Below, one piece after another: positions 50,918 through 51,003 of a stretch of DNA of 52,814 nt. The translations under genes were made by a program, and so were the position numbers. Numbering within the stretch: position 1 is the first letter of the stretch; every line of letters begins with the position of its first letter. This DNA is from a virus. Its lineage: Duplodnaviria; Caudoviricetes. The stretch is taken from positions 1 through 52,814 of IMG/VR virus record IMGVR_UViG_3300025151_000048. The stretch is one strand, 5' to 3'. The notes beneath the pieces were generated by a model. The model had not been told where the DNA came from. It made no database searches and saw only the letters and a program-made list of their open reading frames with translations.

Positions 50918-51003
50918 GGGCGTGAAATGGTTAGACATTGGCAATTACTTTTAATCGAAGGAAAAGCAATGTAACGCAGGTTCGATTCCTGCCACGTCCA
51001 CTA
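50918..51003 (+). ncRNA. tmRNA-like tRNA-like domain without mRNA domain (mini-tmRNA)
   Basis: GGGCGTG/CACGTCC with G3-U70 and A73; stemless D loop AAATGGTTAGAC; helix ACATTG/CAATGT; T-arm GCAGG-TTCGATT-CCTGC. Confidence 0.65.

What the first reader, a model, noticed from the sequence alone, without database searches (positions are those of the whole stretch)
50918..51003. Mini-tmRNA: alanine-acceptor tRNA-like domain with the mRNA domain missing
Seen: G1-C72, G2-C71, G3-U70 and A73 (AlaRS identity); a stemless D-loop ending GG-TTA-GAC as at tmRNA 5' ends; a P2-like helix; a canonical T-arm. Only ~26 nt lie where tmRNA has ~250 nt of pseudoknots and tag ORF. Known: this domain binds SmpB and EF-Tu, and tag-less tmRNAs are known from some protist mitochondria. 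Inference: the phage RNA may sequester SmpB or release stalled ribosomes without adding a degradation tag, subverting host trans-translation. The insert reads GGC AAT TAC TTT TAA (GNYF-stop), faintly like Bacteroidota tags, but this may be chance.
Basis: partly seen in the sequence, partly recalled or inferred. Interest (0 to 1): 0.82.

Follow-up and report, generated by a model that had tools for sequence, protein, structure and literature searches.

The report
Phage tag-less mini-tmRNA gene
This marine phage carries a small RNA gene that is only the alanine-accepting, tRNA-like end of the bacterial ribosome-rescue RNA (tmRNA), a type already known from one mycobacteriophage and likely to interfere with the host's rescue-and-tagging system.

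Summary
Window 50918-51000(+) folds into a 7-bp acceptor stem with G3-U70 and A73, a stemless GG D-loop, a P2-like helix around a 26-nt insert, and a canonical T-arm. CCA is not encoded. ARAGORN and Rfam at gathering score miss it. On Rfam tmRNA it scores 41.9 bits (cut-off 47); the published 'TLD-only' tmRNA of mycobacteriophage DS6A scores 43.2 with the same tool and has the same build.

At least 63 distinct homologues occur in uncultured viral contigs related to Flavobacteriaceae podoviruses. The frame is almost invariant. The middle is hypervariable (24-97 nt) but closed by a strongly covarying helix.

Best reading: a tRNA-like-domain-only tmRNA, alanylated by host AlaRS, that competes with host tmRNA for SmpB and stalled ribosomes. 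Function is inferred from the DS6A literature and was not tested here.

One new point: the middle domains are exchangeable RNA modules that also occur in flanking non-coding RNA domains. The phage also carries other, non-alanine tRNA 'top-half' frames, which keeps a scaffold or processing reading alive.

This scan has reported the same kind on other DNA many times. Verdict: new member of a known kind, moderate interest.

The parts
50918..50924 (+). Acceptor stem, 5' strand GGGCGTG (G1, G2, G3)
   Evidence: It pairs 7 of 7 with 50993-50999. It is GGGCGTG in 62 of 63 homologues.
50925..50934 (+). D-loop analogue AAATGGTTAG, with no D-stem and a conserved GG
   Evidence: GG is present in 63 of 63. 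Bacteroidota tmRNAs have GGTTTTGAC at this position.
50935..50940 (+). P2-like helix, 5' strand ACATTG
   Evidence: Each of the six pairs shows changes on both sides in 6-18 of 30 sequences.
50941..50966 (+). 26-nt insert that replaces the roughly 250-nt pseudoknot and tag region. It is unique to this phage.
   Evidence: No exact 22-mer of it occurs in viral contigs. It holds the non-conserved GNYF* mini-frame at 50940-50954.
50967..50972 (+). P2-like helix, 3' strand CAATGT
50973..50975 (+). Conserved AAC linker before the T-arm. It sits where tmRNAs have (G)GAC.
   Evidence: AAC occurs in 55 of 63 and AC in 61 of 63. Host, phi38:1 and DS6A tmRNAs have GGAC or CAC here.
50976..50992 (+). T-arm GCAGG-TTCGATT-CCTGC
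   Evidence: It aligns to the tRNA T-arm with full posterior probability.
50993..50999 (+). Acceptor stem, 3' strand CACGTCC (U70 at 50997)
51000..51003 (+). Discriminator A73 (51000) and trailer CTA. CCA is not encoded.
   Evidence: The trailer is CTA in 58 of 63. The same ACT start is seen in the tmRNA gene of Bacteroidota MAG G001, in phi38:1 and in DS6A.

Best explanation
This is a gene for a tRNA-like-domain-only (CDS-less) tmRNA.

Inferred steps. It is transcribed with the block of small plus-strand genes. It is cut out like a tRNA: RNase P at G1, 3' trimming to A73, and CCA added by the host enzyme because CCA is not encoded. Host alanyl-tRNA synthetase charges it through G3-U70/A73. 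The host's SmpB binds it. It has no resume codon, tag frame or pseudoknots, so it cannot complete trans-translation. It therefore competes with the host's full tmRNA for SmpB and, once charged, for stalled ribosomes. The result is less ssrA tagging and degradation in the infected cell.

Shown here: the anatomy, its conservation, the covariation, the likeness to tmRNA and to the DS6A RNA, and the absence of an anticodon or tag.

Inferred: processing, charging, SmpB binding and the effect on the host. I cannot tell whether the net effect is a block of rescue or a tag-less rescue that frees ribosomes.
For: Anatomy and fold.

Model scores: Rfam tmRNA RF00023 gives 41.9 bits across the whole model. 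Ordinary tRNAs score about 20-28 bits and family copies 35-39 bits with the same tool. The tRNA model gives only 26.0 bits, with just the acceptor and T-arm aligned. The published DS6A TLD-only tmRNA scores 43.2 bits with the same tool. Its layout is the same: G3-U70, stemless GG loop, P2 helix, about 20-nt insert, T-arm, A-CTA.

Alanine identity in a search free of any acceptor constraint: 21 of the 22 elements with a fully paired acceptor carry G1G2G3...U70C71C72-A73. They do so in four different acceptor sequences in which positions 4-7 covary.

Within this family: the 5' strand is GGGCGTG in 62 of 63. G3-U70 is kept in 69 of 72 distinct covariance-model hits. That count includes a second copy with a compensated 4-69 pair, GGGAGTG/CACTTCC. 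All 16 of 16 hits to an acceptor-free pattern carry the same acceptor.

P2 helix: 90.2% of cells are paired, against 37-51% when the 3' partners are slid by 1-3 columns. There are 71 double changes against 27.5 in shuffles, 0 of 500 shuffles reaching that (30 of the 63 elements). On all 72 the figure is 94.7% (that alignment is fitted to the model).

No anticodon hairpin in 0 of 63. ARAGORN finds no tag.

Lineage context: relatives of this phage group carry full tmRNA genes. Cellulophaga phage phi38:1 scores 87.6 bits. Phage Calle is reported with one tmRNA (PMC8776804, passages).

Literature, passages read: the DS6A sequence is 'little more than the TLD', and a similar molecule strongly inhibits tmRNA in E. 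coli, perhaps by titrating SmpB (PMC4131195; PMC11915505).

Weak hint of expression: contigs from RNA libraries of two studies carry the frame's 3' half joined to other middles. The tool warns that DNA may be present in such libraries.
Against: The element scores below the Rfam tmRNA gathering score (41.9 against 47). In the plain cmscan the tRNA hit was the one kept for the clan, and tmRNA was not listed.

No experiment or RNA-end data exist for this element.

According to the papers read, the E. coli inhibition did not need chargeability. The strict conservation of alanine identity is therefore not explained by a pure SmpB sponge.

The same window holds other tRNA 'top-half' frames without alanine identity: 47855-47900 and 49584-49719. 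Relatives hold paralogues with A1-U72/U73, two of them with G3-C70. The frame type is therefore not always tied to alanine.

The middle domains are modules shared with neighbouring non-coding RNA domains. This points to a function in the cargo rather than the frame.

One family member has A3-U70 (L126).

No SmpB gene is present in the window, so any partner must come from the host.
Confidence: 0.6

Rival explanations
1. It is a tRNA top-half 'holder'. The acceptor/T-arm frame serves mainly as a processing and stabilising scaffold (RNase P, 3' trimming, CCA addition) or as punctuation of the transcript. The function lies in the variable structured module it carries or in the neighbouring RNAs it releases. 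The tmRNA-like features are ancestry, not mechanism.
For: Middle-domain modules of the 63 elements recur at 139 distinct places in related contigs. All 136 places that have a TLD in the same locus lie on the same strand as it. Forty lie 110-500 nt upstream of the T-arm, outside the frame, 5 lie downstream, and 3 are in loci with no TLD at all (examples).

The window has three further frames of this kind ending N-CTA: 47855-47900, 49584-49719 and tRNA-Met. The 49584-type frame also has an invariant frame and a variable middle in 9 distinct sequences.

Non-alanine paralogues exist.
Against: A scaffold needs only base pairing. Yet G1-G3, U70-C72 and A73 stay fixed across four acceptor types while positions 4-7 covary.

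The non-alanine frames in the window were not even candidates for the tmRNA model; only one candidate was found.

DS6A, with about 20 nt, and a 43-nt family member with no middle at all (L107), keep the alanine frame without any cargo.
Confidence: 0.2
2. It is a pure SmpB sponge that never needs charging or ribosome entry.
For: [quoted passage not shown]
Against: Alanine identity is kept in 69 of 72 family members and in 21 of 21 TLD-type elements of four acceptor types. A sponge would not require this.
Confidence: 0.12
3. It is a degenerate or D-armless alanine tRNA that still decodes.
For: The acceptor and T-arm match the tRNA model at 26.0 bits.
Against: None of the 63 has a 5-bp stem with a 7-nt loop carrying U33 and R37, with or without an alanine anticodon. 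The middle varies from 24 to 97 nt. ARAGORN calls none of them.
Confidence: 0.02
4. It is an attachment-site copy or remnant of a host tmRNA or tRNA gene.
For: Phages often carry the 3' end of their tRNA or tmRNA integration target. This is general knowledge, and it is mentioned in PMC11590407 (passage).
Against: Both halves of the acceptor are present and pair with each other. The 22-nt T-arm/acceptor word occurs in only 6 contigs of 3 metagenome-assembled genomes among one genome each of 185,579 species. Each of the 6 carries a full mini element and none lies at the full-length tmRNA locus that each of the 3 MAGs has elsewhere. No integrase is present in the window.
Confidence: 0.01

Closest known systems
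TLD-only (CDS-less) tmRNA of Mycobacterium phage DS6A (JN698994 28478-28560; tmRNA Website entry; Mao et al. 2009, not readable here)
   Same: G1-G3, U70 and A73. A stemless GG D-loop. A P2 helix closing a short insert. A T-arm with loop TTCGATT. An A-CTA end with no CCA. About 83 nt. No tag frame. It scores 43.2 against 41.9 bits on RF00023 with the same tool.
   Different: The phage and host are unrelated: an actinophage against a Flavobacteriaceae-type podovirus. There is no sequence homology beyond the frame. The present family has a hypervariable, modular middle of 24-97 nt shared with flanking ncRNA domains, which is not known for DS6A. Only DS6A-like RNA has been tested experimentally.
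Canonical bacterial tmRNA (Rfam RF00023), such as those of Bacteroidota MAGs G001 and G002 and the full-length gene of Cellulophaga phage phi38:1
   Same: The tRNA-like domain: the GGG...UCC-A acceptor, a GGTT..GAC-type loop, and AC before a TTCGATT T-arm. In G001 and phi38:1 there is also an unencoded CCA.
   Different: There is no resume codon, no tag frame such as GEESYALAA or GTNNYALAA, and no pseudoknots. It is 83 nt rather than 360-400 nt. It scores below the gathering score.
CDS-less organellar tmRNAs (jakobid and oomycete mitochondria, Rfam RF02544; Mallomonadaceae plastids)
   Same: These are tmRNA reduced to the tRNA-like part, with no tag frame (PMC11915505, passage).
   Different: The mt-tmRNA model does not match the element. 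The only hit in the window is elsewhere, at 14.6 bits. Most mitochondrial genes are permuted. They act with an imported SmpB in an organelle, not as a viral competitor.
tRNA-Ala and alanine minihelices
   Same: The G3-U70/A73 identity set and a top half made of acceptor plus T-arm.
   Different: There is no D-stem, no anticodon arm and no anticodon.

Membership tests
tmRNA (Rfam RF00023, canonical) | Score at or above the curated gathering score (47 bits) | tested here: not met
   41.9 bits, with the whole model spanned by way of a large deletion. It was not listed at gathering threshold.
tmRNA (canonical) | tRNA-like domain: acceptor with G3-U70 and A73, D-loop without a stem, T-arm | tested here: met
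   Conserved in the family.
tmRNA (canonical) | mRNA-like domain with a resume codon, tag reading frame and stop | tested here: not met
   ARAGORN finds no tmRNA or tag in the window or in any family locus. The GNYF* frame is not conserved. An Ala-Ala-stop ending occurs in 1 of 63, inside a GNRA hairpin.
tmRNA (canonical) | Pseudoknots PK1-PK4 | tested here: not met
   Only 26 nt lie between the P2 strands, which leaves no room for them.
tmRNA (canonical and TLD-only) | Binds SmpB and is alanylated | not testable with these tools
   These need biochemistry. No SmpB gene is present in the window.
TLD-only / 'Standard, no CDS' tmRNA (DS6A type) | A closed tRNA-like domain of tmRNA type, with the two halves joined by a P2 helix and a short insert, and no coding part | tested here: met
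   The layout matches DS6A element for element and the RF00023 score is nearly equal. P2 covariation is shown.
TLD-only tmRNA (DS6A type) | Inhibits host trans-translation | not testable with these tools
   Known only from the papers' statements about a DS6A-like RNA in E. coli.
mt-tmRNA (Rfam RF02544) | Match to the family model | tested here: not met
   No match at the element. The only match in the window is at 18417-18498, 14.6 bits, E 0.49.
tRNA (Rfam RF00005) | Cloverleaf with D-arm and anticodon arm, and a score of at least 29 bits | tested here: not met
   26.0 bits. The D and anticodon arms are replaced by unaligned inserts. None of 63 has an anticodon-type hairpin.
Permuted (two-piece) tmRNA (Rfam RF04321) | Acceptor piece followed by the 5' acceptor strand of a coding piece | tested here: not met
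   17.1 bits, E 0.41, over the T-arm and the following hairpin only. The element closes on its own 5' strand. In relative L013 the tRNA-Met gene follows directly.

The most novel reading that the evidence does not exclude
The alanine-type tmRNA frame is a delivery chassis rather than only a decoy. In these Flavobacteriaceae-type phages an invariant, chargeable, SmpB-type tRNA-like frame carries interchangeable structured RNA modules. The modules come from a pool shared with the flanking non-coding RNA domains and with other tRNA top-half frames. The frame would process and stabilise the cargo RNAs and perhaps bring them to SmpB or to stalled ribosomes. This would be a natural 'tRNA scaffold' system with swappable inserts.
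Probability: 0.12. Interest if true: 0.75.

Novelty: new member of a known kind. Interest (0 to 1): 0.42.

Why it matters
TLD-only tmRNAs are almost absent from catalogues. The 2025 tmRNA database lists 9 'Standard, no CDS' entries among 97,179 unique sequences and 79 phage tmRNAs (PMC11915505). Standard tools miss them.

This case adds a family of at least 63 distinct genes in phages related to those of marine and freshwater Flavobacteriaceae, bacteria that are main responders to phytoplankton blooms (PMC8776804, abstract listing). If the RNAs act as the DS6A literature suggests, interference with host ribosome rescue and protein tagging is a common phage strategy.

The family also gives a natural series of minimal candidate SmpB/AlaRS ligands, from 43 to about 150 nt. 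The invariant frame with exchangeable middles offers a clean experiment to separate frame function from cargo function.

Tried and rejected
mt-tmRNA reading. RF02544 does not hit the element.

Permuted tmRNA reading. The RF04321 hit (17.1 bits, E 0.41) covers the T-arm plus the next hairpin. I rejected it because the element closes on its own 5' strand and the downstream sequence differs in relatives.

Tag relic GNYF*. It is not conserved.

Cultured relatives. BLAST of the element against 50,697 phage records found only T-arm-sized matches in unrelated phages. With model R1 and RF00023, none of 5 related records carries an alanine-type mini element. The records were MW202828.1, Flavobacterium phage elemoE, and Cellulophaga phages phi18:3, phi38:1 and Tenacibaculum phage Gundel_1. 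phi38:1 has a full tmRNA. Gundel_1 has a TLD-like hit with G3-C70 (29 bits).

Partner genes. No SmpB, integrase, peptidyl-tRNA hydrolase or RF-1/ArfB domain was found in the window. The record is estimated 87% complete, so absence is not proven.

Neighbouring ORFs have no informative PHROG or Pfam match.

Mao et al. 2009 is not held. Its content is cited only through passages of PMC4131195 and PMC11915505. Supplementary tables of those papers were not seen and could list related phage entries.

Literature searches for this family found the DS6A reports and full-length tmRNAs in flavobacterial phages. They found no report of a mini form in this phage group.

RNA-library contigs. No contig spans the whole element, and the parts without cover mean nothing. 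The small-share runs were not used to name a habitat.

My first label 'crAss-like' (notes; text sent) was wrong. The large terminase places the phage with Flavobacterium, Cellulophaga and Tenacibaculum podoviruses.

An unexplained discrepancy remains. The plain cmscan kept tRNA (26 bits) as best of the clan and did not list tmRNA. The genome search gave 41.9 bits for RF00023. I cannot tell which settings differ.

This second call adds that field and changes nothing else.

Full report
WHAT IS THERE.
- Acceptor: GGGCGTG (50918-50924) pairs with CACGTCC (50993-50999). All 7 pairs form, and G3 lies opposite T70.
- Ends: A73 is at 51000 and is followed by CTA, so CCA is not encoded.
- D-loop analogue: AAATGGTTAG at 50925-50934, with no D-stem.
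- P2-like helix: ACATTG (50935-50940) pairs with CAATGT (50967-50972) around a 26-nt insert (50941-50966).
- Linker and T-arm: AAC at 50973-50975, then GCAGG-TTCGATT-CCTGC at 50976-50992.

The MFE fold gives this structure at -24.8 kcal/mol, z = -2.71, with 1 of 200 shuffles folding as well. The element starts 5 nt after the stop codon of a 150-aa ORF (50460-50912). It lies in a block of small plus-strand ORFs.

STANDARD DETECTORS.
- ARAGORN finds only tRNA-Met at 51426-51500.
- Rfam at gathering score finds only that tRNA.
- At a permissive threshold the tRNA model gives 26.0 bits (cut-off 29). Only the acceptor and T-arm align, and the D and anticodon arms are replaced by unaligned inserts.
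- The mt-tmRNA model does not hit the element.
- The tmRNA model RF00023, run through the genome search, gives 41.9 bits over model positions 1-374 at exactly 50918-51003. This is below the 47-bit cut-off.
- With the same tool, ordinary tRNAs in three genomes score about 20-28 bits and copies of this element score 35-39 bits.
- The published TLD-only tmRNA of mycobacteriophage DS6A scores 43.2 bits.
- DS6A has the same layout: acceptor GGGGCCG/CGGCTCC with G3-U70, a GG loop, a P2 helix, an insert of about 20 nt, a TTCGATT T-arm and an A-CTA end.
- I cannot explain why the plain cmscan listed tRNA and not tmRNA for the clan.

HOMOLOGUES. A D-loop/T-loop pattern with no constraint on the acceptor hit 64 viral loci. 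Twenty-two elements, counting the window, have a fully paired acceptor placed 2-7 nt upstream of the D-loop word. Twenty-one of these have the stemless-D-loop layout and G1G2G3...U70C71C72-A73. They fall into four acceptor types: GGGCGTG, GGGGACG, GGGGGTG and GGGTGTG. Positions 4-7 covary among them. The 22nd (L005) is a tRNA-like element with an anticodon arm.

The window's own T-arm/acceptor 22-mer hit 64 viral stretches, mostly on contigs of 40-70 kb. It also hit 6 contigs of 3 MAGs among one genome each of 185,579 species. Each of those 6 contigs carries a full mini element, and each of the 3 MAGs has its own full-length tmRNA at a separate locus.

These loci give 63 distinct elements, and the model later recovered a 64th in L131. 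Their features:
- The 5' strand, which the search left free, is GGGCGTG in 62 of 63. L126 has A3.
- GG is present in the loop in 63 of 63.
- AAC precedes the T-arm in 55 of 63.
- The trailer is CTA in 58 of 63.
- Length to A73 runs from 68 to 143 nt.
- The middle runs from 24 to 97 nt.

A third pattern without the acceptor hit 16 loci. All 16 were already in the set, so all carry the same acceptor.

COVARIATION.
- I aligned 30 of the 63 elements, those up to 96 nt with two near-duplicates left out.
- The six P2 pairs show changes on both sides in 6-18 sequences each.
- The structure pairs 90.2% of cells, against 37-51% when the 3' partners are slid by 1-3 columns.
- It shows 71 double changes against 27.5 in shuffles, with 0 of 500 shuffles reaching that.
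- Model R1 was built from this alignment. It found 79 matches, 72 of them distinct, in 71 sources.
- On that alignment, which is fitted to the model, 94.7% of cells pair. Position 3-70 is G-U in 69, G-C in 2 and A-U in 1.
- In constrained folds, 58 of 63 elements have at least 5 pairs closing the middle. The mean is 9.4 pairs against 3.3 in shuffles.
- The window alone is not significant: 9 pairs against 7.1, with 13 of 30 shuffles as good.

SECOND COPIES. The model also found second copies in some contigs:
- One has a compensated 4-69 pair that still keeps G3-U70 and A73 (L126, GGGAGTG/CACTTCC).
- One has an encoded CCA (L071).
- One is a 43-nt version with no middle at all (L107).
- Three form a paralogue type, AGGCGTG...U73 (L112, L127, L132). 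Two of these have G3-C70, so they lack alanine identity.

WHAT IT IS NOT.
- None of the 63 has a 5-bp/7-nt hairpin with U33 and R37, so it is not a decoding tRNA.
- ARAGORN calls no tmRNA in any family locus, although it does call the real tmRNAs present in the same file.
- GGC-started mini-frames occur in 20 of 63 and give unrelated peptides. An Ala-Ala-stop ending occurs once, inside a hairpin.
- The window's insert is found in no other viral contig. The GNYF* frame is therefore chance.
- No integrase is present, and no host gene shares the 3' word. This argues against an attachment-site copy.

PHAGE AND HOST.
- The window is the whole 52.8-kb record, estimated 87% complete.
- Portal, large terminase and a virion protein match phage families.
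- The terminase is 61.5% identical to an uncultured podovirus (MW202828.1), 45.7% to Flavobacterium phage elemo, 36-38% to Cellulophaga phages and 32% to Tenacibaculum phage Gundel_1.
- My first label 'crAss-like' was therefore wrong.
- A marine metagenome run holds 77% of the sampled words. It may be the source sample.
- tmRNAs of two Bacteroidota MAGs start GGGG(T/C)(C/T)G-AC(T/C)-GGTTTTGAC and end GGAC-T-arm-acceptor-A. One of them has no encoded CCA. Their tags are GEESYALAA and GTNNYALAA.
- Cellulophaga phage phi38:1 has an unannotated full-length tmRNA at 26803-27164, scoring 87.6 bits.
- One tmRNA is reported for the related phage Calle (PMC8776804, passages).

LITERATURE. PMC4131195 lists 'Mycobacterium phage DS6A (TLD only)'. 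[quoted passage not shown] PMC11915505 repeats this. It counts 79 phage tmRNAs and 9 'Standard, no CDS' sequences among 97,179, and it describes CDS-less organellar forms (passages). The primary paper, Mao et al. 2009, is not held. Four searches found no report of a mini form in flavobacterial phages. This scan's own earlier notes report the same kind many times on other DNA. I treat those notes as leads only.

THE MIDDLE DOMAIN IS A MODULE SLOT. BLAST of the 63 middles against all fetched loci gave 139 distinct places.
- All 136 places that have a TLD in the locus lie on its strand.
- 89 lie within 110 nt upstream of the T-arm, that is, inside or partly inside a frame.
- 40 lie 110-500 nt upstream, 2 lie further upstream and 5 lie downstream.
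- 3 lie in loci without a TLD.
- As an example, the middle of L074 and L095 forms a separate hairpin domain just upstream of the TLD in L092, L111 and L116. In L092 the middle of L034 is nested inside that domain.

The inserts are therefore not decayed remnants of the tag region. They are structured modules exchanged with neighbouring non-coding RNA domains.

The window also holds other 'top-half' frames. One is a 46-nt unit at 47855-47900. Another is a 136-nt unit at 49584-49719, whose frame is invariant and whose middle varies in 9 distinct sequences, with one compensatory acceptor change.

EXPRESSION HINTS. Contigs from RNA libraries of two studies carry the frame's 3' half joined to other middles. 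One of them runs on into 51004-51199. The tool warns that such libraries can hold DNA, so this is weak.

MECHANISM. Shown here: a conserved RNA gene with tmRNA-type tRNA-like anatomy and alanine identity, and no coding part. Inferred: tRNA-like processing, CCA addition, alanylation, SmpB binding, and competition with host tmRNA that lowers ssrA tagging. Conservation of the alanine set argues that charging matters, and hence that the RNA enters the ribosome. A pure sponge would not need it. Whether the outcome is a block of rescue or a tag-less rescue cannot be decided here. The scaffold reading is kept at about 0.2 because of the module exchange and the non-alanine frames.

VERDICT. This is a new member of a known kind, the DS6A-type TLD-only tmRNA. 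It belongs to a sizeable unannotated family in Flavobacteriaceae-type phages. The additional new point is that the middle is an exchangeable module. Interest is 0.42.

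Noticed in passing
window 51004-51425 (core 51095-51197): This is a non-coding, GC-richer stretch between the mini-tmRNA and tRNA-Met. A 103-nt core is 97-99% identical in three other viral contigs (L160-L162), where it sits in a larger non-coding region upstream of tRNA-Met and no mini-tmRNA is nearby. The core also lies in contigs from RNA libraries of four studies. No Rfam family matches at E up to 10. By eye it has nested or pseudoknot-like pairings.
   Followed up: partly
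window 49454-49719: This 266-nt intergenic RNA region has two parts. The first is a hairpin 'holder' (49454-49548) carrying a module that is the mini-tmRNA middle in L124. The second is another tRNA-like frame (acceptor TAACTAG/CTAGTTG, T-arm AAGAGG-TTCGATT-CCTCTT, 49584-49719) with a GG loop and a large variable middle. Nine distinct homologues were found, and L097 shows one compensatory acceptor change. It has no alanine identity.
   Followed up: partly
window 47855-47900: This is a 46-nt tRNA 'top half': acceptor TGATATG/CATATCA, an 11-nt loop containing GG, T-arm GTGAG-TTCGATT-CTCAC and an A-CTA end. It lies in the gap between two ORFs. Model R1 gives 23.3 bits.
   Followed up: no
related loci L092 8533-8637, L111 4040-4133, L108 1062-1189, L102 383-515, L160 1715-1811: RNA modules that form the middle of the mini-tmRNA in one phage sit in flanking hairpin domains, or in the large ncRNA, of another phage. 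They are always on the same strand and are sometimes nested inside one another.
   Followed up: partly
L154/L156 (Cellulophaga phage phi38:1, NC_021796.1 26803-27164, minus strand): This is a full-length tmRNA gene (87.6 bits on RF00023) that the record does not annotate. A hypothetical CDS on the other strand overlaps it. ARAGORN's proposed tag (AQIEANMEAVNAILNLEVAVGV*) does not end like the host-type ...YALAA tags.
   Followed up: partly
L107 7471-7513; L112 2373-2466, L127 12692-12788, L132 102-198: Some relatives carry a second copy. One is a 43-nt alanine-type version with no middle domain. Three form a paralogue type with A1-U72 and U73, two of them with G3-C70, so they lack alanine identity.
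   Followed up: partly
L147 (Tenacibaculum phage Gundel_1, NC_062747.1 73061-73132): This is a TLD-like element with acceptor GGGAGTA/TACTCCC, hence G3-C70 rather than G-U. ARAGORN does not call it, and model R1 gives 29 bits.
   Followed up: no
L005 (viral contig, about 10196-10262 on the minus strand): This is a tRNA-like gene with a fully paired acceptor, no D-stem, and an anticodon-type hairpin containing GCA.
   Followed up: no
window 51186-51203, 51342-51359, 51411-51425: Three stable hairpins are each followed by a similar A-rich word, C-C-(N)-AAAATA-(T/C)-(T/A)-ATAG or a shorter form. The last one ends directly at G1 of tRNA-Met. They could be processing sites or phage promoter words.
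   Followed up: no
window 44130-45695 (minus strand): A phage-encoded GroEL-type chaperonin: 521 aa, phrog_5725, E 1e-130.
   Followed up: no
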